This document shows positions 30,326-42,138 of a DNA stretch of 64,000 nucleotides, piece after piece. The stretch spans positions 320,001-384,000 of the forward strand of contig OZ271854.1 in assembly GCA_965601925.1 (NCBI GenBank), written 5' to 3'. The notes under the pieces are model-generated. The model was not told the DNA's origin, made no database searches, and saw only the letters and a program-made list of their open reading frames with translations. Both the position numbers and the translations under genes were made by a program. This DNA comes from Alkalispirochaeta sp. GTDB lineage: Bacteria > Spirochaetota > Spirochaetia > DSM-27196 > Alkalispirochaetaceae. Numbering within the stretch: the stretch's first letter is position 1; the number at the start of each line of letters is the position of its first letter.

Positions 30326-31741
30326 ATGGCAGAATCGGAGCGTTTCGAGGAGCAGCTTGCGGAGCTTCTCGAAGCACAAGCCCAACAGATAGAATCCGAG
30401 GTCATCCCGGAGCTTAAGCAGCAATTCCGCCAAATGCGGTCCAGCTTCGAGGCGATCCACAATGTACTGAGGAAGAAGGCTCTCCTCAAAGAGGACCCGT
30501 ACAACTATGAGGAACGAATTTCGGAACTCGATACTCCGTCGGACGATCCCTATCTCGACAGCGAAAAAGATGTACAACTCAGCACGAGACTGTCGCAATA
30601 TCACTCGCGCATCGAATATCTGACCGACTACTACGACTGTTCGATTGAAAATCTCGATCTGGTACGCCTCAAGGCGCTGACGAAGTTCATAAAGTACCTC
30701 AACTGGAGGAATCTTTCGGAAACCGCGACCCAGCCGACGACGCGGGGACTCGCGGAACAGATCATGAAGATCAAGCGATCGAGCGACGCCCTGTCGGTCA
30801 ATATCGTGAACGACGCGCACGAACAGCTCAATCGCGCGTCGGTCAAAATCAACAAGGCATTGAAGAAGATCGCGCGCTACCAACGGGAGTCGTACAAACT
30901 CGCGGTACGCACGACGATTTTGACCGAACCGTCGATACCCGCCGCGCCGGCGCCTGCGGAGATGGACAAGACGGCGCGCAAAATAAAATCGGCTTTTCCG
31001 CGCCTCCTTCCCGGTCGTCCGTTTGCGAGGGAGCTCATTTTCGAGATCTTCAGCGAGAACGCCGCCGACGGTGGAGAAGCGGCGAGACAGAACCTGCTCC
31101 ACGACCTCGCCGTGGAACGGGCGCCGGCGGAGGAAAAGCAGGCCGGGGCCGACCTCAAACCGATACTGCTCGACGCGGCGAAGGCCGTAGCCTCGTGTAG
31201 TCGTCCCTTCGAGGAGGGGGCGCGGAAACTAAGCGATAATGCGCTGGTCGTCGAGAATCGCAAACTCACGTTCGGTGAAATGCTGCGACGTATTTGGGAA
31301 CACATGCGGGGAAGGGATCGCGAAAGCCACGTCTACACCGTCGACTACCTGGATCAATCGACGAATGCGCGCCGAAGCGAGGACATTCATTTCGAAGAGT
31401 TCATCAATCTCGTCTCCCGAAGGGCGCGGATCTATAACGGCATCTTACGCAAGACGGGTAACGCGTGGAACAAGCTTTACGGCTCGTCGGAGGATGTCAT
31501 TCTCAACTTCGTCACCAAGGATATCCAGGACGCGTACGAGATCGTACGGCGCTTTGAGTCGCTGGATACCTTTTTTCGCGCCGAGGTGACTCGCGAGCAG
31601 CGCGCCCAACTTCGCGGGATCAACGTGGAGCTGACGACGATCAAGGACAACCTCGTGCGAGCCCGTAAAAAGGCGCATCAGTACGTCGCCAAGTCCGAGG
31701 AGATCGCACAACTCAAGAAACTGGGCATCACCGGGACGTAG
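30326..31741 (+). CDS. Hypothetical alpha-helical cytoplasmic protein
   Basis: Long ORF; ATG 30326 lies 6 nt after TTGCGG-17-TATCAT; no family recognised. Confidence 0.7.
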   Translation: MAESERFEEQLAELLEAQAQQIESEVIPELKQQFRQMRSSFEAIHNVLRKKALLKEDPYNYEERISELDTPSDDPYLDSEKDVQLSTRLSQYHSRIEYLTDYYDCSIENLDLVRLKALTKFIKYLNWRNLSETATQPTTRGLAEQIMKIKRSSDALSVNIVNDAHEQLNRASVKINKALKKIARYQRESYKLAVRTTILTEPSIPAAPAPAEMDKTARKIKSAFPRLLPGRPFARELIFEIFSENAADGGEAARQNLLHDLAVERAPAEEKQAGADLKPILLDAAKAVASCSRPFEEGARKLSDNALVVENRKLTFGEMLRRIWEHMRGRDRESHVYTVDYLDQSTNARRSEDIHFEEFINLVSRRARIYNGILRKTGNAWNKLYGSSEDVILNFVTKDIQDAYEIVRRFESLDTFFRAEVTREQRAQLRGINVELTTIKDNLVRARKKAHQYVAKSEEIAQLKKLGITGT

Positions 31742-31857
31742 CGGGCACGGCTCCCTCAGTGCGTCGCCAAGTCGATCCGTCGTCGCTCGGCAAGGCGATA
31801 TGTCGTGAACACCTCGGCAAAGTGTCGCCGCAGAAGACCGTCCATCGTTCCGTCTGC
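31266..31857 (+). repeat. Direct duplication, left copy (3' part of the 30326 gene plus 3' tip of the convergent SBP gene)
   Basis: Near-identical to 35283-35665 by manual alignment. Confidence 0.92.
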
Positions 31858-32617
31858 GGTGCGGTGGCTCCTTGAGGTGGCGGTACATGTATCGCGTCAC
31901 CTATGTTTGCCTCGAAGAGGCGCACAATATCGTCACTGATATCGTTCGTGATTTGATGGTCGATGCCGGTAAATCCAATTCATCGTACATCTCTTGCGGG
32001 TTTATACTCGTTCGTCCTCATTGTACGTATCGCCGTCGGGAAGCGTATCATCGTCGTCTCATCGGGACTCGCCCTTTAATGACGATTCTATCTTCCGCGA
32101 GCAGCGTGTGCGCGTGTTCGATCATTGCAATGAGTTGTAGATCAATCCGTTCCGCGATACTTCCGGGGTAACTGCGAACGATTCTTCGACCGGCACTCGC
32201 GGCATGGCAAGAATGACGATCGTCGACAAATCCCGTATTGTCGGGTTACACCATAGCCGGCTCTCCTCACCCGGTTTGAGCGCCTTGCGAGATAAACAGA
32301 TGATACTCGAACCGGAACCCTATGGATGGTTGCCCCGCAACCTCAATGAACAGCGGTTGGTCCGTGGGAATCTCGCGTAGATTCAAGAGCTGTTCCGCGG
32401 TCTCTATCCGGACGATTCAACGTCTTAAGACGCGATTGGATATGCAACCGGCGAGGCGTACTGCCAAGACGGGACACGACAACGTTTATCGAAGTATTTT
32501 TTACAACGAGGCCCCCAAATTGATAATCCGTTTATTGCCTATCATGAGATTTTCCGATTGGTACCCGGAGTTCGATCAACGTCGATACGGTATCGGTGGC
32601 CTCTCTGTAAACAATAC

Positions 32618-32648
32618 TTGACAACTGGGCGTTCTCGTATGATCATAC
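32618..32648 (+). promoter_or_regulatory. Putative promoter of the peptide gene with an overlapping palindrome
   Basis: TTGACA at 32618; perfect palindrome GTATGATCATAC at 32637-32648 over the -10 region; AT-rich sequence follows. Confidence 0.5.
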
Positions 32649-32722
32649 CATCGATACGAAAAAGTTAAGGTATATACTAAAAATATTCGGTAATATCTAT
32701 GTATCAATGCAGGAGGTTTCAG

Positions 32723-32869
32723 ATGAAGTGGCAAGGTTACAATGAGAAAGCGGCCGAGCGGATGAATGGATTTGTCGTCAGGATTATAAACAGTCGATCG
32801 ATCCTCGTCCTGATCGCATTGGCGGCGATGGTGGTGGTCGCTGCGGCAACCAACAAGTGGGGCGGTTAA
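32723..32869 (+). CDS. Small 48-aa peptide, putative signalling-peptide precursor (MKWQGYNEKAAERMNGFVVRIINSRSILVLIALAAMVVVAAATNKWGG)
   Basis: AGGAGG RBS at 32711-32716, 6 nt before the ATG; hydrophobic core and short polar tail; below the ORF-track size cutoff. Confidence 0.75.
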   Translation: MKWQGYNEKAAERMNGFVVRIINSRSILVLIALAAMVVVAAATNKWGG

Positions 32870-33049
32870 TCATCCGATTCCGGATTCGTTAGTTCGTTCA
32901 CGACCAATAATCAATCTCGTTGCGTGATATACGTATCCCGTGGGTGTTGTTCGGCGTGTTTTTGGTGTTCGCTTAGCCCATAGGCGCAGGACCGTCGACC
33001 AGCCACCTCATTCTGTTCGTCGCGGAGGAATGCGTGTTATTATCCCGCA

Positions 33050-34333
33050 ATGAGCAGATGGGCGCGCATCTATATCGCCGCCGTGTGTTTCGGCAGCCTT
33101 GTAATACTCACTACCGGATCGATCGATCTCGATCTGAGACAAAATCTCGTGCCGATCATGCTTCTTACGGCGGCTTCGTTCCTCACTCAGGTTTACGAGC
33201 TTGAGATACTGCCCAAGTATCTATTCTCAACTCATATTGCGATAGCGACGACGGCGGCGTTCATCGGTGGAATGCCTCTTGCGATATGGGTCGTGGTTTT
33301 GTCCACGCTACCGGCGGAGATCCTCTTACGGTGGGACCATATCAATAGCAGCTTCGGCCGGTTTACCGCACCGGTCTTGTTCAACACCGGACAGGTGATC
33401 TTGAGCGTCGCCGCTGCAGCTACCGTTTTCGATGCGATGATCGATCTCATCCCGGCCGTAAATCATTCCTATTATGCGATGATTGCGTCCTTTCTGGCTT
33501 ACTTCTTCGCCAACAACTTCCTGGTTGCCGGTGTCATCGCATTGACCTCAGACGAACGATTTTTCAAGATCCTTCATTCCGGATTCAAGAATCTTTATTT
33601 GCAATTCCTCAACCTGGGAGTCTTGTCAATCCTTATGACTACCCTCTACAAGGTCTCTCCGGTAAACCTCGCGTTGGCCCTTGCTCCCCTCGCACTCGTA
33701 CACCACTCGACCCGCAACTACCTTCGGCTACGCCGTGAATCGCACCAAGCGTTCAAACGGATCACCGAGCTGTTGGCCGAACGGGATGAGTACACCGGTG
33801 CGCATTCCGACGAGGTGGAGGAGTTGGCGGTCAAGCTCGCGGGGGCGGCAGGGCTCACCGACGACGCGATCGAGGCTGTGCGAGCCGGCGCCGCCATTCA
33901 CGATATCGGTAAGATCGCGATACCCGACGCAATACTGAAAAAACAGGGTCCCCTCGATACTGAGGAGTTTGAGACGATGAAGCGACACACGATCATCGGC
34001 GCCGAAATCATCAAGGATCTCGATATCTACCGGAGCGTCGTGCCGATCGTTCGGCACGAACACGAACACTGGGACGGATCGGGCTATCCGGACGGGTTGG
34101 TTCGGGAGGCTATTCCGATCGGGGCGCGCATCGTCGCGGTTGCCGATGTGTACAGCGCGCTAAGGACCGAGCGAGCGTACCGACCTCCGCAAGGCAAACC
34201 GTTGAAGTACACACACAAAGAGGCGTGTCGCATACTGTCTGAGATGGCCGGAACGGTATTGGATCCACACTTCGTCGAGGTATTCCTTCGCGTCGTCGGT
34301 AACATGGTTCACGAAGAGACGGCGGGGGACTGA
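33050..34333 (+). CDS. Membrane-bound HD-GYP cyclic-dinucleotide phosphodiesterase with multi-TM sensor domain
   Basis: Several predicted TM helices in the first ~220 aa, then RDEYTGAHS, IHDIGK, HEHWDGSGYPDGL and ARIVAVAD. Confidence 0.9.
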   Translation: MSRWARIYIAAVCFGSLVILTTGSIDLDLRQNLVPIMLLTAASFLTQVYELEILPKYLFSTHIAIATTAAFIGGMPLAIWVVVLSTLPAEILLRWDHINSSFGRFTAPVLFNTGQVILSVAAAATVFDAMIDLIPAVNHSYYAMIASFLAYFFANNFLVAGVIALTSDERFFKILHSGFKNLYLQFLNLGVLSILMTTLYKVSPVNLALALAPLALVHHSTRNYLRLRRESHQAFKRITELLAERDEYTGAHSDEVEELAVKLAGAAGLTDDAIEAVRAGAAIHDIGKIAIPDAILKKQGPLDTEEFETMKRHTIIGAEIIKDLDIYRSVVPIVRHEHEHWDGSGYPDGLVREAIPIGARIVAVADVYSALRTERAYRPPQGKPLKYTHKEACRILSEMAGTVLDPHFVEVFLRVVGNMVHEETAGD

Positions 34334-34335
34334 TA

Positions 34336-34914
34336 GTGATCGCATTGTGGGGAATTGTTTTCGGGCTGTTGATCGGATTCATTCGCGGGGGAAAACTCAA
34401 TAATCTCGGAGCTACTCGGTTACGGGGACTCTCTATCGTCTTCGTGGCCCTTGCCGTTCAGCTCCTCATCTTCCCTACGCCGTGGTGGCCCGAACCACCG
34501 GTGTCGCGGGCGACGGGTGCATTGCACCTTGGTTCCTACGCTCTGATGGTGACGTTCCTCATATTGAACCGTCGGTATACTCCCTTCTGGGGTGTTGCCC
34601 TCGGTATGGCGATGAATCTTACCGTGATAGCGGTAAACGGCGGTTACATGCCCGCGGATTTAGACGCTTTGAGAGCCACCGGACAGTTGGGGACGGTTCG
34701 CAAGATTCTGGCGTCCGTCGATCAGACCTACGGTAACGTGGTCGCGATGAGCGAAGCGACGCGTTTGAATTTTCTCGGCGATTGGTTGGTGGTTCCCCCC
34801 TGGGTGCCATTTGCCGCGAGCTTCAGCCTGGGAGACGCAGTGTTGATGGTTAGCGCTGCTTGGCTCGTCCAAGCACTTATGTCTGATCGAGAACGACGGA
34901 ACGACGACGGTTGA
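34336..34914 (+). CDS. DUF5317 family membrane protein (LspA-like aspartyl peptidase by inference)
   Basis: G..RGG.L..L, Q, SY, N..VI..NGG.MP, L.FLGD and FS.GD motifs; starts 2 nt after the HD-GYP stop. Confidence 0.8.
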   Translation: MIALWGIVFGLLIGFIRGGKLNNLGATRLRGLSIVFVALAVQLLIFPTPWWPEPPVSRATGALHLGSYALMVTFLILNRRYTPFWGVALGMAMNLTVIAVNGGYMPADLDALRATGQLGTVRKILASVDQTYGNVVAMSEATRLNFLGDWLVVPPWVPFAASFSLGDAVLMVSAAWLVQALMSDRERRNDDG

Positions 34915-35029
34915 TGATGGGCCTTGTCCGCACGCATCAATAGATAATCACGTCACGGCGATTGACTCTTCCGTAGCGGGGTCCCACAGCGTTCGTATCG
35001 AGTTCCGTTTTCTCGATGCTCGGGCAGCG

Positions 35030-35282
35030 GCGCCGCAGCGTATCCAGGTTCACTACCGAGAGTACCAGGCCCTGGCGGTCTCCGACGTGTCTCGCCGCTT
35101 CGCCATAATCCGCGACGGTGAATAGCGCGTCTTCCCCCGTCCAAAGACGCCCTCGATCGGGTTTCGCGCATGCTGATCGTTACGAGCCTGATAGCGTTCG
35201 GCCCGCGTCGGATAACTTCTTCGGCCCGCCCCCAAAGGCGGTCCGCCAAGCCGTGTGCCGCGTGTTGTGCAATACCGTGCCG
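35030..35282 (-). pseudogene. IS5-family transposase C-terminal remnant
   Basis: Frameshifted RLGGPPLG...RNPIEGVFGRGKTRY...IMAKRRDTSETA...GLVLSVVNL resembles the IS5 DDE C-terminus; truncated where the duplication begins. Confidence 0.75.
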
Positions 35283-35665
35283 TCACGGTCGGTGATACGC
35301 CGCGACGTATTTGGAAACACATGCGGGGAAAGGATCGCGAAAGCCACGTCTACACCGTCGACTACCTGGATCAATCGACGAATGCGCGCCGAAGCGACTC
35401 GCGAGCAGCGAGCCCAACTTCGCGGGATCAACGTGGAGCTGACGACGATCAAGGACAACCTCGTGCGAGCCCGTAAAAAGGCGCATCAGTACGTCGCCAA
35501 GTCCGAGGAGATCGCACAACTCAAGAAACTGGGCATCACCGGGACGTAGCGGGCACGGCTCCCTTAGTGCGTCGCCAAGTCGATCCGTCGTCGCTCGGCA
35601 AGGCGATATGTCGTGAACACCTCGGCAAAGTGTCGCCGCAGAAGACGATCCATCGTTCCGTCCGC
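35283..35665 (+). repeat. Direct duplication, right copy (pseudogene fragment with a 209-bp internal deletion, plus the intact SBP 3' end)
   Basis: 35283-35397 matches 31266-31380 and 35398-35665 matches 31590-31857. Confidence 0.92.
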
Positions 35666-36382
35666 CGCGACCGCATGCAAGCCCCGTTCTATGGCTTGAA
35701 TGACGCAGGGCGAAACCTGGGGAGAAAAGTAGAACCGGAAATCGCGCGCGTATACCAAAAGCAGATTCGGCTCCACCTCGAGGTGGGGATAGTGCGGTGC
35801 CTCGGAAATCACCTCGGCGATGCCGCGCGGAAAATAGTCGATTCCGCGACCGCGATTGGCAACCATACCGAAGATATTGCGCGAGTCGGCCACCTCTACC
35901 ACGGAGAGACCGTTGACGTTCCATACCTGGGCGTCGTACCAGCCTTCACCTACGCCGGCCACAGCGTCGAGCGCTACGAGGTCGGCCACGGAACGGACGT
36001 CGCGATACCGCGCCGACTCGCCGCGCGGTATCAAAAACACGCGATGTCCGATCAAATTGTTGGTGACCGGCGCGTTAGCGACGCGATACGTACCGTTTCG
36101 CTCGACCGTCTCGACGTACCAATCGACGTCGATCAGATGGCCGGCTTCGAGTGCCGCCTGGCGCCGTAGCTGCGGAATATCGGGGATCGATTCGATCTCC
36201 AGACGAAGTCCCGCACGATCGGCCGCCGCGATGAGCAGTTCGTGATAATACCGATGGCCTTGATCCTCCGCACTCGGTACGCGCAGGGAGATCTGCGACT
36301 GAGCGTCCGTAACGGTGGCGAACAACATTAGTATAGCCCCCAATAGCGTGAGCCGATTGGGGACGACTCGAGATGCATGCAT
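35564..36382 (-). CDS. Periplasmic substrate-binding-fold protein
   Basis: Signal peptide followed by GEGWYD, GIDYFPRG and FYFS motifs typical of stand-alone SBP-like sensor partners. Confidence 0.75.
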   Translation of the reverse strand: MHASRVVPNRLTLLGAILMLFATVTDAQSQISLRVPSAEDQGHRYYHELLIAAADRAGLRLEIESIPDIPQLRRQAALEAGHLIDVDWYVETVERNGTYRVANAPVTNNLIGHRVFLIPRGESARYRDVRSVADLVALDAVAGVGEGWYDAQVWNVNGLSVVEVADSRNIFGMVANRGRGIDYFPRGIAEVISEAPHYPHLEVEPNLLLVYARDFRFYFSPQVSPCVIQAIERGLHAVAADGTMDRLLRRHFAEVFTTYRLAERRRIDLATH

Positions 36383-36509
36383 AAAGACGAATCCCCCATG
36401 AGAAGTGGTGACACTATCCTGTGTCGGATGGGCACGGGCCCGTAGTGTGCTCGCGCGCCGTTCGGACCGGATTGACGCCGCCGCACGGAATGGTACCACC
36501 GGCGGGACG

Positions 36510-38486
36510 TCATGGGCAGCCCACCGTCTGGTCGCGCGCCAACGCATCCAAGCAACGATCGAGCGTGTCGGGGCGATGGAGGTGATAGCCCTGGCCGAGC
36601 TCAAAACCGGCCTCCAGAACGAGCTGAACGTGTTCGCGCGATTCGATTCCCTCGGCGAGGGCGGGTATACGCAACGCGCGCGCCAAGCCGGCGATCGACT
36701 TCAACACATGCTTGGACGCCCAGTTGTCGGCGGCGCCGGACACGAAGTGGCGGTCGATTTTGATCATACCGAAGCGATAATCATTGAGCCTCCGGAGCGT
36801 CGAAGAGCCGGCCCCGAAGTCGTCTATAACGATAAGAAAGCCGAGTTCCTGTAACGCCCGTACGGCGGCGACGTAGGCGGTGGAGTCGTTCCCGACCGAT
36901 GTCTCGGTCAGTTCGAACCGCAAGCGCCGCGGTAACTCGGGTCGCTCCGCGATAAGCGCACGAATGTCGTCGACGAGACGCTCGCTCAACAACTGGACGG
37001 GACTGAGATTGACGTTGACGAAGACACCGCCGTCGGTTCGTGCCGCGTCGATTCGCGTGATCGCATCCGCCGCCTGCCGTACCGCCCACCACCCGAGGTT
37101 TAGGATCTCACCGTTCTCCTCAGCAATGGGGATAAACACCGACGGCGGAATCATTCCCAACTCGGGGTGGGACCAGCGCACCAACAATTCATATCCCACG
37201 ACGCGCCTGACGCGCAGATCGACGATCGCTTGATAGTGCGCCGACAGCTGGCTTCGATAATCCGTTCCGGACATCGCCTGCTCCAGCGCGGTCCGCAGGG
37301 AGTGCTCGTGCCGCGCGGCGTCGTCATACTCCGCTACGGCCGAGCCGTGGGGCATCCGTACGGTGGCGCGAAGCCCGGCGTCGGCCCGTTTGCGCGCCTC
37401 GTTAACCTCCATGTCGATCGGAAACGAGGCGACGGCGGCGCGAACCCGAATACGAAACGCGCCGGTACGAAGATGGATCGGTCGCTCCATCACTTCGATA
37501 AGTCGCGCCGCTCGGGCCCGCGCAGCCGTGAGACCATCCAACTGGGCGACGGCGAAGAACTTAAAACCGTATCCGCGTACCAAAACGGCGCACGAGGAGC
37601 CGAGATTGGTGCGCGCGCGGGCCGCGAGCACACGCAACAACTCGTCGATCAAGTGTGTGTCGAGGAGCGAAACGAGTTCCGCCACGTGTTCGACCGACAG
37701 GGCGATCATGAATCTCGAGTGCCGGGGATGAGCCTTGCTCTCCGCCGCCGGTACCGGAACCTCCTCGTTCAGCGCTCGCAACAGCGGCAATCCGGTCGCA
37801 TAGTCATAGTATGCTTGATACCGCAGTCGACTCTGATCGAGCTGGAGGGAGCGCAACTCGCGCATGAGCCGTACACGATTGCCGCGACGATCAACCCCGT
37901 TCATGATCTCCATGAGTACCGCCAGCAACCCGACGATCAGAACCAACTGGCCGACGTAGAGCAATACGCTACCGACGATCGCTCGACCTACCGCGTCTTC
38001 AATGGAGGAACGATTCAACAGCACCGTGGCGTGTCCTATCGTCCGGTCCTGCCAATAGATCGGGGCGCGATACACGAACTGAGCCAGCCGCCGATCGGCT
38101 ATCCAACTCGGGCGAGCGATCGGGTTGCCGCCGGACGAAAAGAATATCCGCACCCCCTCGGAGTCGTAGGTCGCGGTAATGCGGCCGTTTTCGGACACCA
38201 CGGCACGCTCGATCTCACGGAGATTCTCCATGGCCGCCACCGCCCGCCGCATACCCTCATCGGACAGCGTCCAGAGAGGCTCGGCGACCGCAGCGGCCAG
38301 TGCACGCGCGAGCCGATCTCCGGCTGCGTGCAACTCCGCCCGCTGCCGCCGAACGGAGATGATGCCGAACAACACGATCGCGACCAATGCCCCCAACGCT
38401 ACAACGATGACGTGCGGCCGCATCGTCGACAACGCCGAGGTACGCGCCTCAGTCGAAACGTCTATTCGCTTCATCATCGGCTTCAT
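36510..38486 (-). CDS. Membrane EAL-domain c-di-GMP phosphodiesterase with degenerate GGDEF domain
   Basis: Two TM helices; degenerate GGDEF (RGYGFKF); ELLVRW, FIPIAE, NLSP, ELTE, DDFGAG, IKID, EGIE and QGY motifs. Confidence 0.85.
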   Translation of the reverse strand: MKPMMKRIDVSTEARTSALSTMRPHVIVVALGALVAIVLFGIISVRRQRAELHAAGDRLARALAAAVAEPLWTLSDEGMRRAVAAMENLREIERAVVSENGRITATYDSEGVRIFFSSGGNPIARPSWIADRRLAQFVYRAPIYWQDRTIGHATVLLNRSSIEDAVGRAIVGSVLLYVGQLVLIVGLLAVLMEIMNGVDRRGNRVRLMRELRSLQLDQSRLRYQAYYDYATGLPLLRALNEEVPVPAAESKAHPRHSRFMIALSVEHVAELVSLLDTHLIDELLRVLAARARTNLGSSCAVLVRGYGFKFFAVAQLDGLTAARARAARLIEVMERPIHLRTGAFRIRVRAAVASFPIDMEVNEARKRADAGLRATVRMPHGSAVAEYDDAARHEHSLRTALEQAMSGTDYRSQLSAHYQAIVDLRVRRVVGYELLVRWSHPELGMIPPSVFIPIAEENGEILNLGWWAVRQAADAITRIDAARTDGGVFVNVNLSPVQLLSERLVDDIRALIAERPELPRRLRFELTETSVGNDSTAYVAAVRALQELGFLIVIDDFGAGSSTLRRLNDYRFGMIKIDRHFVSGAADNWASKHVLKSIAGLARALRIPALAEGIESREHVQLVLEAGFELGQGYHLHRPDTLDRCLDALARDQTVGCP

Positions 38487-39074
38487 CGGTGTACCGTAAG
38501 TCGATAGACAACGTCGGCGGCGTCCGACAGTCACTACACCGATCGGCGTGTGATATCAAGCTCACCGGCGTAGTCGGTAGATTTGCTCTTATTTCGATTA
38601 TCGTTTCCCTCGTCATCGCCGCCGTATCCGTGACGATTCGAAGCGCGGCGACATCTGAGAGCGCCCGCTCACGATCGTCTACCGCCCCGCTGCGTAACGA
38701 GGATGTACCGTTGTGTCGCAATACCTATACCCCTCCGGTCCGGCAATGCGCGGACTACGCTCATAATTCGCCGGTCGGCAGTGCTCCGTCGATCCGTGCA
38801 TCTGCGCCGAAGCATACAATACGAGGGTTCCGTACGATCGCCTGTAACTGTCTTGCCGGAAATTTGTCGGTACTTGCTCCGGCGCGTGCGTAGCAAAGCT
38901 CCGTATTGCACTGCGTAGGTATCGCGACGGTTTGCTCGTCGGTTCCGGTTGCGATACTATTACAGAAGGTCGGGCCGCGGTCTTCTCCTCCGATGACGGC
39001 AATATTAGAGCAGGGAGACACGAGAGGGTCTCGCTCGACACACTGCGTATCGGCACACGCCGATCTTTTTCGGG

Positions 39075-40070
39075 GTGCGCCGGCAGGGAGTAGCGATGAC
39101 CAGCGGGAGCACCGACATACACACGCTCACCACCCTACCGGCCGATCGACACGCCGAAACGCGCAGCAACTTCGCATTCTTCGACCGTAGTGGACGTCGC
39201 GTCGATGTCGGTAAAGTCGCCGCGTACTCGAGCGTCGGGCTGGACATTCCGCACGTCATTGCCGAATCGGGACACAACGACCATTGTATCCTGGAACAGG
39301 GGCACTCTCGCACGTTCATGCTTTTCATGCATCTGGAGCGTTCGACACCGATCGAGTTGTCGGCCGCGGGAATACATCGATCCTACGATATGCGCTACGG
39401 CCAGATCATATGGATACCTCCGAACGTCGAGTACAGCGTATACGGCGTGAATCCGTCGAGTTATATCGGGCTTGCGTTCGAGAGACGCTTCTTCGACGAG
39501 TTACCGATCGAGACGCGGCACTTCCGGTTCTCACAGCATGTACCGGACTACGAGATAGAGGACGCGCGGCTACGGCATGTGATGGGTGCGGTGCGCTCCG
39601 AGCTGGAGCACGAGTCGCCGCTTTCGACGATGATCCTACAGAGCCTTTTTACAACAGCCGCCGCGCTGCTGTTGGAACCCCAGGGTTTCGGGCCTGCAGA
39701 CCGACCGAAGCGGCACTTCGCACCGGACAGACGGCTTCAGAGGGTGGTCGATTACATCGACGCCAACCTCGGGTCGGAGCTGTCGATCGATGAGCTATCC
39801 GCCGTTGCGGGTATGAGCCGGTTCTACTTTGCACGAATGTTTCGCGAACAGACCGGCGACACGCCGAGGACATTCGTCATGAGTCGACGTATCGCCCGAG
39901 CGACGACGCTGTTGGCGTCGACCGACCTTTCGATCGGGGAGATCGCGTTGGGACTCGGGTTCGCCGACCATTCCCATTTCACCCGGGCGTTTCGCGCCCG
40001 ACTCGGTGTATCGCCCAGCGAGTACCGGGACGAACGGACCGGGAGATCGTTCGCGATGGCGGCGGGATAG
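39075..40070 (+). CDS. AraC-family transcriptional regulator
   Basis: C-terminal double HTH (GMSRFYFARMF...GFADHSHFTRAF...SPSEYR). Confidence 0.9.
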   Translation: MRRQGVAMTSGSTDIHTLTTLPADRHAETRSNFAFFDRSGRRVDVGKVAAYSSVGLDIPHVIAESGHNDHCILEQGHSRTFMLFMHLERSTPIELSAAGIHRSYDMRYGQIIWIPPNVEYSVYGVNPSSYIGLAFERRFFDELPIETRHFRFSQHVPDYEIEDARLRHVMGAVRSELEHESPLSTMILQSLFTTAAALLLEPQGFGPADRPKRHFAPDRRLQRVVDYIDANLGSELSIDELSAVAGMSRFYFARMFREQTGDTPRTFVMSRRIARATTLLASTDLSIGEIALGLGFADHSHFTRAFRARLGVSPSEYRDERTGRSFAMAAG

Positions 40071-40200
40071 ATCGGAAACTCGCCCTCCGGCGTGACCGTC
40101 CGTACGGCGACGCTTTCGGTCCGCGGCTCGGTGGTGCCGCGTTTTTCTCTCGGACTCCTCGGCGGTCGGGCGACGTTACGCAGAGTCGCTCAACGGGCGA

Positions 40201-42138
40201 TCACGAACGATCGGGCCGACGCGAGCTACGAAACATTCCCAAGAGGCGTAGATTGCGGGTCTCAGCCTCGAGGGCGCGATACGCCTCGTCAAACTTGGCG
40301 TGCTCACCGGGTAACTCGACGTCGAGATAGAACATGTAACGCCACGGCTCGCCGAGAATCGGACGCGACTCGAGCTTCTTCAGGTTGAGATTGCGCTCCG
40401 CGACGACGCGCATACAGTCGTATAACGCACCGGGCTTGTCGGGTGTCGAGAAAACCAGCGTCGCCATATCAGGGTCACGCGCTCCGGAATGTTCCTCTCG
40501 AGCCAGGATGGCAAAACGCGTGTAATTACGCGCGTTCGTCTCGATGCTCTCCCGCAGCACCTTCATGCCGTAGTAGGTCGCCGTGCGCTTGTGGGCGATC
40601 GCCGCGACGGAGGGGTCCGCCGTCTCGGCAACGTGCGCCACCGCGCCGGCAGTGTCATAAAAGGGCACGACCGACCATTCGGGATAACGGTTGAGAAAGT
40701 CCCTGCATTGCTCGATACCCGGCGCCTGCGAGACGACGGTGCGCACCGTATCCAACGTCGCATCGGGAGTCCCGATCAAACTGTGCTGGATCCGAATGTG
40801 CGTCTCGCCGATGATACGGATATCGGGATACTGGAGCAGAAGGTCGTAGTTCTCGTGGATCGACCCCATGAGTGAGTTCTCCAAGGGAACGATCCCGAAC
40901 TCCACCTCTCCTGTGAGCACCGATTCAAACACATCACGAAAATGCGACCGGCTAACCGGCTGCAACTCGCGTTCCGGCTGGTCGAAGTAGCGCAGGAGCG
41001 CGATTTCGCTGTAAGCGCCGCGAGCCCCTTGAAACGCAACGCGAATCTCCGAGGAGGCCGATTCGGGTGCCGGCCGGTCCGCATCGGCGACAACTGAGCA
41101 ATCGATGCGGTGGCGTTGAGGAAGTCTGGCGACCTCGCGTCCCACGACCGGCGAAAGCGCCTCGATGTCGCGCATCAACTTCTCGAACTGCTCGGGGTAG
41201 AGCGTTTGCGGTCCGTCGGATAGAGCGCGATCGGGCTCGGGATGCACCTCGACGATCAATCCGTCGGCACCGGCCGCGATGGCGCCGAGACCGACGGGAG
41301 AAACTTGTTCGCGCAACCCCGTAGCGTGGCTCGGATCGACCAGCACGGGAAGATGGCTCAGCTTCTTCACGACCGGAATCGATGAGATGTCGAGGCTATT
41401 TCGGGTGTACGTCTCGAAGGTGCGGATACCCCGTTCGCAGAGGATCACGTCTTCGGCCCCGTGGGCCAACAGATACTCGGCGGCCATGAGCCACTCCTCG
41501 ATCGTTGCGGCGAGACCTCGCTTGAGCATAACCGGGCGCGCCTGCGCACCGACGGTCTTGAGGAGTTCGAAGTTCTGCATGTTGCGCGCGCCGATCTGAA
41601 AAACATCGACGTACTCACGCATGTGCTCGACGTGGGTGGGAGAGACGATCTCCGAGACGACCGGAAGACCATAGCGCTCTCCCGCCTCCTTGAGGTATCG
41701 GAGCCCCTCCTCGCCCAACCCTTGAAAGGAATACGGAGAGGTACGCGGCTTGTAGGCACCCCCGCGAAGCATCACTCCGCCCGAGGAAGCGACGATATCG
41801 GCGGTCTCGATAATGAGCTCGCGACTCTCGACCGCGCACGGACCGGCGATCACCACGAGACGGTTTCCGCCGACCTTTATCGGTCCAATGGGGAAGACCG
41901 AGTCCTCCCGCTTGAACTCACGCGAGGCGAGTTTGTACGGCTTGGTAATCGGCACGACCTTCGCCACACCGGGAAGAAGCTCTACCTCGCGAACATCGAT
42001 GGGGCCGCTGCCGACGGCGCCGAGAATCGTTTCGGTCTCTCCTACCACTTCGCGGACGCGAAACCCGCGTCCTTCGAGAAACGCGCGCAAGGAGGTCTTA
42101 TCGCGCTCGGTAATATCGTGTTCCAGTACGACGACCAT
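40201..42138 (-). CDS. aroF: Fused DAHP synthase (type I-beta, N-terminal ACT) and prephenate dehydratase
   Basis: AGPCAVES, KPRTSPYSFQG, ERGIRTFE and DPSH motifs, then FQGARGAYSE, PLENS, NYTRF and LESRP. Confidence 0.92.
   Translation of the reverse strand: MVVVLEHDITERDKTSLRAFLEGRGFRVREVVGETETILGAVGSGPIDVREVELLPGVAKVVPITKPYKLASREFKREDSVFPIGPIKVGGNRLVVIAGPCAVESRELIIETADIVASSGGVMLRGGAYKPRTSPYSFQGLGEEGLRYLKEAGERYGLPVVSEIVSPTHVEHMREYVDVFQIGARNMQNFELLKTVGAQARPVMLKRGLAATIEEWLMAAEYLLAHGAEDVILCERGIRTFETYTRNSLDISSIPVVKKLSHLPVLVDPSHATGLREQVSPVGLGAIAAGADGLIVEVHPEPDRALSDGPQTLYPEQFEKLMRDIEALSPVVGREVARLPQRHRIDCSVVADADRPAPESASSEIRVAFQGARGAYSEIALLRYFDQPERELQPVSRSHFRDVFESVLTGEVEFGIVPLENSLMGSIHENYDLLLQYPDIRIIGETHIRIQHSLIGTPDATLDTVRTVVSQAPGIEQCRDFLNRYPEWSVVPFYDTAGAVAHVAETADPSVAAIAHKRTATYYGMKVLRESIETNARNYTRFAILAREEHSGARDPDMATLVFSTPDKPGALYDCMRVVAERNLNLKKLESRPILGEPWRYMFYLDVELPGEHAKFDEAYRALEAETRNLRLLGMFRSSRRPDRS

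What the first reader, a model, noticed from the sequence alone, without database searches (positions are those of the whole stretch)
34336..34914. DUF5317 protein carries signal-peptidase-II-like catalytic motifs
The order G.AMN...NGG.MP ... FLGDWL ... FSLGDAV parallels LspA (GN..DR...G.V.DF ... FN.AD). Two Asp residues (LGD and FSLGD) occupy positions like the LspA catalytic dyad before the last TM helix. The neighbouring peptide has no Cys, so this would be an LspA-fold protease acting on a non-lipidated substrate. The similarity is by eye only.
Basis: inference. Interest (0 to 1): 0.72.

Follow-up and report, generated by a model that had tools for sequence, protein, structure and literature searches.

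The report
DUF5317: probable signal-peptidase-II offshoot
This uncharacterised membrane protein seems to have kept the cutting half of the enzyme that trims bacterial lipoproteins, and it travels with a tiny lipid-free membrane peptide and a c-di-GMP sensor, so it is a good but untested candidate for the processing enzyme of an undescribed peptide signal.

Summary
The ORF is real (DUF5317). D149 and D167 are kept in 214 of 214 homologues, and both in 39 of 40 distant held-out ones.

The whole model matches LspA only weakly: absent from the Foldseek rows shown, rank 34 of 48,161 by VIA. The C-terminal core (57-186, boundary chosen) ranks LspA first in both searches: Foldseek E 0.81; VIA Z 6.0-6.5, 2.6-3.2 A over 83-87 residues. 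Scores are modest, not significant. Range ends put D167 on LspA's second catalytic Asp.

It is not an LspA family member: no Pfam A8 match, about 5 of 14 hallmark residues, a 43-residue insert, and a normal LspA exists elsewhere.

An upstream Cys-free 48-aa membrane peptide ends G/A-A-x-x-K-W and accompanies DUF5317 in 47 of 48 loci. Complex prediction gave weak support (0.59, best control 0.00).

Best reading (0.55): an LspA-derived aspartic peptidase cutting this peptide for a MASE9-like HD-GYP sensor. The scan noted this cassette before on other DNA; my paper searches found no description.

The parts
34336..34914 (+). DUF5317 protein, 192 aa, five predicted membrane helices (2-16, 32-45, 60-77, 84-100, 165-183); putative LspA-related aspartic peptidase
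34504..34893 (+). Core (residues 57-186) that superposes on LspA helices H2-H3, hairpin and H4
34603..34617 (+). G90-x3-N94, counterpart of LspA G102-x3-N106 (S. aureus numbering)
34648..34776 (+). About 43-residue outer-face insert (105-147; small sheet plus helices), absent from LspA
   Evidence: aligned length 83-87 of 130
34780..34782 (+). D149, candidate first catalytic Asp (LspA D118/D124)
34834..34836 (+). D167, candidate second catalytic Asp (LspA D136/D143)
   Evidence: (range ends)
32711..32716 (+). Shine-Dalgarno AGGAGG of the mini-peptide gene
   Evidence: sequence; like motifs before most homologues
32723..32869 (+). 48-aa Cys-free membrane peptide: basic N-part, one helix, tail V39-A-A-A42-T-N-K-W-G-G. 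Candidate substrate; predicted cut A41/A42
33050..34333 (+). 427-aa membrane HD-GYP protein with a MASE9-like N-terminal domain, ending 2 nt before DUF5317; candidate receptor/output
   Evidence: HD_5 E 4e-33; MASE9 14.5 bits, under cut-off 24.3; relatives reach 36.6 and 38.6 bits
31577..31857 (+). Left copy of a 281-nt direct repeat (3' end of the TP0584-family gene) bracketing the cassette
35283..35665 (+). Right, partial copy of the TP0584-family gene end (115 nt at 95% and 281 nt at 98%)

Best explanation
DUF5317 is a divergent relative of signal peptidase II. It kept LspA's catalytic half (H2, H3 with G-x3-N, the hairpin carrying the first Asp, and H4 starting F-S-x-G-D). It replaced LspA's N-terminal helix and cradle strands with two other helices and a 43-residue outer lid. 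The co-encoded mini-protein inserts N-in/C-out like a signal peptide. The Asp pair at the outer leaflet cuts it where the helix ends, between a small residue (mostly Gly) and the conserved Ala that stands where a lipoprotein has its lipidated Cys. This frees a 4-8-residue tail (A-x-x-K-W-type; residues 42-48 here). The freed tail, or the shortened membrane stub, then acts on the neighbouring MASE9-like HD-GYP protein and shifts c-di-GMP turnover. Shown: motif conservation, topology, partial fold match, gene linkage. Inferred, with my odds: common ancestry of the catalytic half about 0.8; active protease about 0.7; this peptide as substrate about 0.55; the product as the sensor's ligand about 0.4.
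For: (1) Core fold: Foldseek ranks 5dir_A 1st, 5dir_C 2nd, 6ryp 8th and 6ryo 12th of 105 matches from 350,542 chains; TMq 0.36-0.41 against 0.30 or less for all other rows shown. VIA over 48,161 chains: 6ryp rank 1 (Z 6.0, 3.2 A, 87 aligned) and 5dir_A rank 5 (Z 5.6, 2.6 A, 83 aligned, 20% identity; lowest rmsd and highest identity of the 50 rows). Second look: 6ryo Z 6.5, 2.6 A, 86 aligned. 6ryo/6ryp and 5dir are LspA. (2) Register: if the last helix is ungapped, range ends put D167 on D136 or D143 in 4 of 5 LspA rows (5dir_C is one off). hhalign independently pairs D149 and D167 with LspA's two Asp (P 0.008, probability 5%). (3) Both Asp invariant, also in GGDEF, MFS, TPR and SPOR fusions, and on the outer face by positive-inside counts. 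(4) Peptide near DUF5317 in 43 of 48 loci with at least 2.6 kb upstream by a fixed rule, 47 of 48 with those seen. It is present in 4 of the 5 loci with no HD-GYP. Held-out: 24 of 40 loci vs 3 of 200 control windows. (5) Ala at K-3 in 60 of 63 unique tails and G/A/S before it in 58 of 63. (6) Complex prediction: weak support, score 0.59, best of 3 controls 0.00, runs agree in at least 77% of contacts, partner pLDDT at least 63. The mark was reached by 116 of 157 solved complexes and 2 of 215 mismatches, but at 0.60 or under by only 18 solved complexes and by both mismatches. It may reflect likeness to solved LspA. (7) A canonical LspA is present in this genome and in 37 of 37 other DUF5317 genomes, so DUF5317 is free for another substrate.
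Against: No score is significant. For the whole model, Foldseek gave no hit at E 0.001 and LspA was not among the rows shown; VIA gave rank 34, Z 5.1. For the core, Foldseek E is 0.81, and Z 6.0 is tied within 1 with unrelated three-helix membrane bundles (Z 5.8, 5.7) and under the tool's guide of 8. The core boundary was chosen. hhalign against spirochaete LspA alone gave an off-register match, and the DUF5317 HMM ranks the genome's own LspA only 23rd of 629, also off-register. LspA's D109 and R110 align to V97 and I98; D21, K25, N52 and G54 have no aligned counterpart; F163 is kept in only 7 of 40 distant homologues. The lipobox likeness is limited. The review's L-[AS]-[GA] peaks at the right place in only 14 of 63, a wider pattern peaks elsewhere (34 at K-10), and an SPase I-like pattern fits 38 of 63 one residue later. 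In Bacillota/Actinomycetota the Leu sits one place further back. The Asp-Asp distance could not be measured because no coordinates are returned. 61 of the 80 tree rows lie in one clade, so the first set of counts is not independent.
Confidence: 0.55

Rival explanations
1. DUF5317 has an LspA-like scaffold but does not cut. It binds the intact mini-protein (the Asp pair holding the conserved Lys/Arg of the tail) and presents it to, or withholds it from, the sensor. The peptide is then an in-membrane regulator of the MgrB/SafA type (analogy taken from earlier finding e1-7257902 and recall).
For: The weak complex score shows at most binding. K/R is kept in 63 of 63 tails of the first set by the search rule. 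DUF5317 is fused N-terminally to PAS-GAF-GGDEF in L044, L047 and P0073, where sensor domains usually sit. LspA's D109/R110 are missing. The peptide's N-terminal M-K-W is also conserved in the near clade.
Against: Two Asp, three Asn and a Ser are near-invariant down to 15-29% identity, an enzyme-like pattern. Tail Lys is often absent in distant peptides while the G-A junction stays (L071 and L077). The fusions keep both Asp.
Confidence: 0.2
2. DUF5317 is a peptidase, but the cut is an off-switch or clean-up step. The intact membrane peptide is the active regulator, or SPase I makes the first cut, and DUF5317 destroys it; no diffusible signal is made.
For: The SPase I-like small-x-small pattern (recalled rule) fits 38 of 63 tails, and A-x-G followed by A is common in distant peptides. 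Galperin and Chou suggest MASE9 binds its ligand within the membrane (10.1101/2021.11.05.467447, passages read). No exporter is part of the window's cassette.
Against: The tail beyond the junction keeps a conserved aromatic residue and varies by lineage, as expected of a read-out ligand. Leu at the SPase I -3 position in 19 of 63 and Glu at its -1 position in 3 of 63 fit SPase I poorly. Tandem peptide copies (up to 6 in L052) suit a dose-dependent product.
Confidence: 0.15
3. The likeness to LspA is convergent: a common three-helix membrane bundle with a look-alike Asp motif. DUF5317 then does other chemistry (peptide modification or transfer), or is a GxGD-type protease (family features recalled).
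For: All fold scores are below the tools' significance guides. No Pfam A8 match for the window protein; only 4 of 150 members touch it, best E 0.41. S-x-G-D resembles G-x-G-D. Earlier finding e1-5227035 judged the overall fold different.
Against: Two different algorithms put LspA first for the core, with the lowest rmsd and highest identity. The aligned length (83-87) equals the core minus the insert (130-43). Four motif elements fall in order and in register. 23 of 203 DUF5317 proteins score above 5 bits on an LspA HMM against 5 of 638 membrane ORFs of this genome (the 203 are related, so this is weak).
Confidence: 0.1

Closest known systems
LspA, lipoprotein signal peptidase II (Pfam PF01252 Peptidase_A8; PDB 5DIR, 6RYO, 6RYP)
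   Same: H2-H3-hairpin-H4 arrangement (83-87 residues, 2.6-3.2 A); G-x3-N on H3; two outer-face Asp 18 residues apart, as in S. aureus D118/D136 (PMC6952399, passages read); candidate substrate shaped like a signal peptide with a small residue at the end of its helix.
   Different: Five helices rather than four; LspA's first ~55 residues not aligned; 43-residue insert before the first Asp; F-S-x-G-D for F-N-x-A-D; no D109/R110; candidate substrate has Ala, not diacylglyceryl-Cys, and only a 4-8-residue mature part; patchy distribution, always beside a normal LspA in the 38 genomes tested.
MASE9-HD-GYP phosphodiesterases (T. maritima TM1467, S. venezuelae HdgA)
   Same: The gene upstream is a membrane HD-GYP protein with a weak MASE9 match; relatives pass the cut-off. 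T. maritima also holds DUF5317 (control line).
   Different: The defining preprint gives no ligand and has no occurrence of 'peptide' in its main text. The hdgA paper has no occurrence of 'peptid' and reports no developmental phenotype for HdgA, suggesting missing activating signals (PMC6205966, passages read).
Peptide signals cut from membrane precursors, such as enterococcal sex pheromones and staphylococcal AgrD/AgrB (recalled, no call)
   Same: Short precursor, dedicated membrane peptidase and sensor encoded together or linked.
   Different: Different peptidase classes; the output is a transcription regulator or kinase rather than a c-di-GMP enzyme; in the pheromone case LspA cuts a true lipoprotein.

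Membership tests
DUF5317 (PF17248) | Pfam match above the curated cut-off | tested here: met
   94.4 bits vs 25, E 9e-27
LspA / Peptidase_A8 | Pfam PF01252 match above cut-off | tested here: not met
   No match for the window protein at E up to 1; 4 of 150 members match weakly, best E 0.41
LspA / Peptidase_A8 | Two invariant Asp on the outer face, one on the hairpin and one starting the last helix | tested here: met
   The D167 register comes from range ends; the D149 register comes from hhalign and the 18-residue spacing.
LspA / Peptidase_A8 | The two Asp are close in 3D, forming a dyad | tested here: inconclusive
   No coordinates returned. DSSP shows strands at 149-152 and 162-163 followed by the helix from 165, compatible with a dyad but not measured.
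LspA / Peptidase_A8 | The 14 hallmark residues listed in PMC6952399 | tested here: not met
   By the register: G102, N106, D118, D136 and (in near homologues) F132 identical; N133 to Ser and A135 to Gly, both near-invariant; V116 uncertain; D109 and R110 lost; D21, K25, N52 and G54 outside the aligned part
LspA / Peptidase_A8 | Four membrane helices with the beta-cradle, over the whole protein | tested here: not met
   Five helices and a 43-residue insert. Only LspA residues 55/60-161 align, so the catalytic half is shared and the N-terminal part is not aligned.
LspA / Peptidase_A8 | Substrate with a lipobox Cys (L-[AS]-[GA]-C; PMC9360617, passages read) | tested here: not met
   The candidate substrate has Ala (60) or Glu (3) at that place in 63 unique tails, never Cys
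LspA / Peptidase_A8 | Proteolytic activity dependent on both Asp | not testable with these tools
   Needs a cleavage assay
GxGD intramembrane aspartic proteases (recalled) | G-x-G-D motif and presenilin/FlaK-type fold | tested here: inconclusive
   The motif is S-x-G-D (S in 213 of 214). I recognised no such structure among the rows shown, which does not exclude it.
MASE9-HD-GYP (upstream gene) | HD-GYP domain | tested here: met
   HD_5 114.9 bits; H-D and G-Y-P motifs in the sequence, with H-E-H-E in place of the usual x-H-H-E, as in 21 of 42 adjacent homologues
MASE9-HD-GYP (upstream gene) | MASE9 match above cut-off | tested here: inconclusive
   14.5 bits vs 24.3; homologues in L058 and L074 pass at 38.6 and 36.6, several others fall between

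The most novel reading that the evidence does not exclude
DUF5317 is a second family of the signal-peptidase-II type that cuts a lipid-free, Ala-for-Cys signal-like peptide and releases a short A-x-x-K-W-type autoinducer read by MASE9 sensors: a cross-phylum peptide quorum system wired straight to c-di-GMP, here carried into a spirochaete on an insertion.
Probability: 0.38. Interest if true: 0.88.

Novelty: new variant of a known kind. Interest (0 to 1): 0.7.

Why it matters
LspA is known as a lipoprotein-only enzyme and an antibiotic target, and to my recall it has no second family. A widespread offshoot that cuts a non-lipidated peptide would show how this active site works without the lipid-holding cradle. 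The DUF5317 profile found 6,213 clusters at 50% identity, with matches in 45 of 121 and 72 of 201 sampled genomes of two phyla. It would also give the first concrete ligand candidate for MASE9 sensors, whose signal is unknown, and a direct link from a peptide signal to c-di-GMP. The predicted cut site, product and catalytic residues make it testable in three small experiments.

Tried and rejected
Sequence search of the PDB with the protein or its profile: no LspA at E up to 10. NCBIfam: no family. Whole-model Foldseek: no match at E 0.001 and no LspA among the rows shown; its second look had a best Z of 4.4. ESM Atlas: no usable feature hit outside DUF5317, and by structure only DUF5317 clusters. 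hhalign against a spirochaete-only LspA alignment gave an off-register match of the DUF5317 hairpin to LspA's N-terminal strands, probability 7%; rejected as noise of the same size as the in-register match, which is itself only 5-11%. Dropping the insert columns raised the probability to 6-11% over three cuts, post hoc. The window's own DUF5317 fell outside my membrane-ORF filter, so its rank on the LspA HMM was not obtained. My first peptide patterns forced small residues before K-W and were replaced by an unconstrained rule; two false rows (L026, L074:6168) were dropped, leaving 63 of 65. The first HD-GYP pattern undercounted (11 of 48) and was replaced by phmmer (43 of 48). Co-variation of F163M with the three Glu-type peptides was rejected: one clade, and Met occurs in 9 of 214 others; residue labels are one too low. 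'DUF5317 replaces LspA' was rejected. 'Assembly artefact at the flanking repeat' is unlikely: repeated pieces show doubled depth in contigs, though from the same sample. Rfam: two chance-level matches only. No RNA holder listed. Paper searches: 'DUF5317' 0 papers. In some searches no listing linked this family to LspA; I saw search listings only, except passages of four papers. Subscription journals, bioRxiv supplements and Pfam/InterPro free-text notes were not searchable and may hold such a link.

Full report
Observation. The ORF at 34336-34914 encodes a 192-aa protein of family DUF5317 (94 bits). It is the genome's only copy. Across 214 homologues from two searches, G90, N94, N101, P106, D149 and D167 are each 214 of 214, and N78, S164 and G166 are 213 of 214. 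The two Asp are the only acidic columns above 80%. As a held-out test I fetched 40 loci from two other phyla, picked by Pfam hit and not by motif (20 of 66 and 20 of 80 listed matches). At 15-29% identity to the window protein, D149 is kept in 40 of 40 and D167 in 39 of 40.

Topology. The AlphaFold2 model (pLDDT 95.4) has five membrane-length helices. Lys/Arg density is 0.18-0.22 per residue in loops 17-31, 78-83 and the tail, and 0.05 in loops 47-59 and 101-164. Both Asp therefore lie at the outer face, as LspA's do (PMC6952399, passages read). D149 starts a short hairpin (149-152 with 162-163) and D167 sits in the first turn of the last helix.

Is it LspA-like? For the whole model the answer is weak. 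Foldseek gave nothing at E 0.001 and LspA was not among the rows shown. VIA-align over 48,161 chains put S. aureus LspA (6ryp, identified) at rank 34, Z 5.1, 3.7 A over 96 residues, below hits driven by the generic helix pair 20-86. I then folded residues 57-186 alone (pLDDT 95.8); this boundary was chosen. Foldseek now ranked P. aeruginosa LspA 1st and 2nd and S. aureus LspA 8th and 12th of 105 matches (best E 0.81, probability 0.30, TMq 0.41; other rows 0.30 or less). VIA ranked the two LspA representatives 1st and 5th of 48,161 (Z 6.0 and 5.6; 3.2 and 2.6 A; 87 and 83 aligned; 13 and 20% identity), with unrelated three-helix bundles tied on Z (5.8, 5.7) but at 4.5-5.4 A and 4-7% identity. 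The second look gave LspA the top three rows (best Z 6.5, 2.6 A, 86 aligned). None of these scores is significant by the tools' own guides.

What persuades me is the agreement between methods. The aligned length equals the core minus a 43-residue insert. The insert is seen directly: Asn to first Asp is 44-60 residues against 12-18 in LspA, while Asp to Asp is 14-20 against 14-32. Range ends put D167 on D136 or D143 in 4 of 5 LspA rows if the last helix is ungapped. Profile alignment with 39 diverse LspA sequences pairs both Asp in register, though only at P 0.008 and probability 5%, and a spirochaete-only profile gave an off-register match of similar strength. I put common ancestry of the catalytic half at about 0.8.

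It is not an LspA. There is no Pfam A8 match. About five of LspA's 14 hallmark residues are identical; D109 and R110 align to V97 and I98, and the four N-terminal ones have no aligned counterpart. This genome and 37 of 37 other DUF5317 genomes encode a normal LspA.

Surroundings. Upstream lie a 48-aa ORF with a good Shine-Dalgarno (32723-32869) and a membrane HD-GYP gene with a weak MASE9 match ending 2 nt before DUF5317. Among the window and 80 loci (the best 80 of at least 514), 48 have at least 2.6 kb upstream. An HD-GYP gene lies in 43 of the 48 and directly upstream in 42. A membrane mini-peptide lies near in 43 of 48 by a fixed rule and in 47 of 48 counting masked, variant or more distant copies; L065 has none. 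In 4 of the 5 loci without HD-GYP the peptide is still beside DUF5317, with a GAF-GGDEF protein, a MASE9-like hybrid kinase, a TPR/BTAD regulator or a glycosyltransferase nearby. The peptide thus follows DUF5317 at least as closely as it follows the phosphodiesterase. These loci are clustered (61 of 80 tree rows in one clade). In the held-out set a like peptide was found in 24 of 40 loci against 3 of 200 control windows of this genome (the rule was written).

The peptide. It reads like a signal peptide with almost nothing after it: basic N-part, one helix, then a short tail. In 63 unique tails the residue three before the Lys is Ala in 60 and Glu in 3, never Cys; the one before it is Gly 45, Ala 7, Ser 6. 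In the near clade this looks like a lipobox (L-[AS]-[GA]-C; PMC9360617, passages read) with Ala for Cys. The support is limited: the strict pattern fits 14 of 63 there (5 or fewer at any other offset), a wider recalled pattern is not specific, and an SPase I-like pattern fits 38 of 63 one residue later. In the distant phyla the Leu is one place further back, and only the Gly-Ala junction and an aromatic tail residue are general. Folding DUF5317 with the peptide gave weak support: score 0.59, best of 3 controls 0.00, at least 77% of contacts shared between runs, partner pLDDT at least 63. The mark was reached by 116 of 157 solved complexes and 2 of 215 mismatches, but at 0.60 or under by only 18 solved complexes and both mismatches; no interface was given, and likeness to solved LspA may contribute.

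Mechanism. The most likely reading (0.55) is an LspA-derived aspartic peptidase that cuts the precursor at the outer leaflet between the small residue and the Ala (A41/A42 here) and frees a 4-8-residue tail. LspA's cradle is proposed to cover the substrate's lipid chains and downstream residues. Its partial loss and replacement by a lid would suit a lipid-free, short product; this step is inference. Whether the tail is a diffusible ligand of the MASE9-like sensor (about 0.4) or the cut is an off-switch for an in-membrane regulator (0.15) is open. A non-catalytic binding role (0.2) is helped by DUF5317-PAS-GAF-GGDEF fusions, although these keep both Asp. Convergence or other chemistry gets 0.1.

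History of this copy. DUF5317 was found in 2 of 301 sampled genomes of this phylum and 4 of 17 of the genus. The window protein groups with three Spirochaetota rows and one row titled Thermotogae (100/98), inside a mostly Bipolaricaulota clade (96/99); no donor test was run. In 8 of 9 fetched loci of genus relatives the TP0584-family gene is directly followed by the aroF-pheA gene (the ninth contig is cut short), whereas here about 8.4 kb lies between them, and the cassette is bracketed by a duplicated end of the TP0584-family gene. This fits a recent insertion.

What is known. 'DUF5317' occurs in 0 papers of the library, and seven further searches showed no listing linking it to LspA. The MASE9 preprint names no ligand (passages read). 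The hdgA paper reports no phenotype and suspects missing activating signals (passages read). This scan has noted the cassette on other DNA at least eight times. Only the 45-of-121 tally rests partly on five genomes flagged unpublished.

Verdict. Observation confirmed; interpretation partly supported and still untested at the bench. It works like LspA with fair probability, but it fails LspA membership. New variant of a known kind; interest 0.70.

Noticed in passing
window 31266-31857 and 35283-35665: The 3' end of the TP0584-family gene is duplicated around the cassette. The right copy joins two pieces (95% and 98% identical) and skips about 200 nt between them; depth doubles on the repeated pieces in same-sample contigs.
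   Followed up: partly
window 31742-40200: About 8.4 kb lies between the TP0584-family gene and aroF-pheA, which are neighbours in genus relatives. Besides the peptide cassette it holds a solute-binding-like gene (35564-36400, -), a membrane EAL protein (36510-38534, -) and an AraC regulator (39075-40070): two c-di-GMP phosphodiesterase types in one insert.
   Followed up: partly
window 33050-34333: The HD-GYP protein has H-E-H-E in place of the usual x-H-H-E; 30 of 42 adjacent homologues have Glu at that place. Metal number or product may differ.
   Followed up: no
L019:3815-4594, L052:3101-4257, L024:3990-4595, L042:3653-4599: Tandem arrays of 3-6 mini-peptide genes upstream of the HD-GYP gene, some with slightly different tails.
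   Followed up: no
L013:8-142, L024:4131-4265, L042:4465-4599: One clade has Glu instead of the conserved Ala (S-E-x-L-K-W); its DUF5317 keeps both Asp. A natural specificity variant.
   Followed up: partly
L044:1277-4057, L047:1500-4322; P0073, P0117, P0133, P0172, P0174, P0195, P0202: DUF5317 fused to PAS-GAF-GGDEF, TPR, MFS transporter or SPOR domains, with both Asp kept. The MFS fusions hint at peptide transport.
   Followed up: partly
window 32723-32731 and homologues: The mini-peptide of the near clade begins M-K-W and ends K-W, so the same dipeptide stands at both ends. Unexplained.
   Followed up: no
window 32500-32678: AT-rich stretch with three sigma-70-like matches on the + strand ahead of the peptide gene; 6 found in the region against 2.2 expected.
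   Followed up: no
L146 (G381:C69): The one held-out DUF5317 lacking the second Asp (Thr instead), with no peptide or HD-GYP found in its locus; possibly a decayed or non-catalytic copy.
   Followed up: no
window 40201-42138: Fused DAHP synthase and prephenate dehydratase (aroF-pheA type), conserved in the genus.
   Followed up: no
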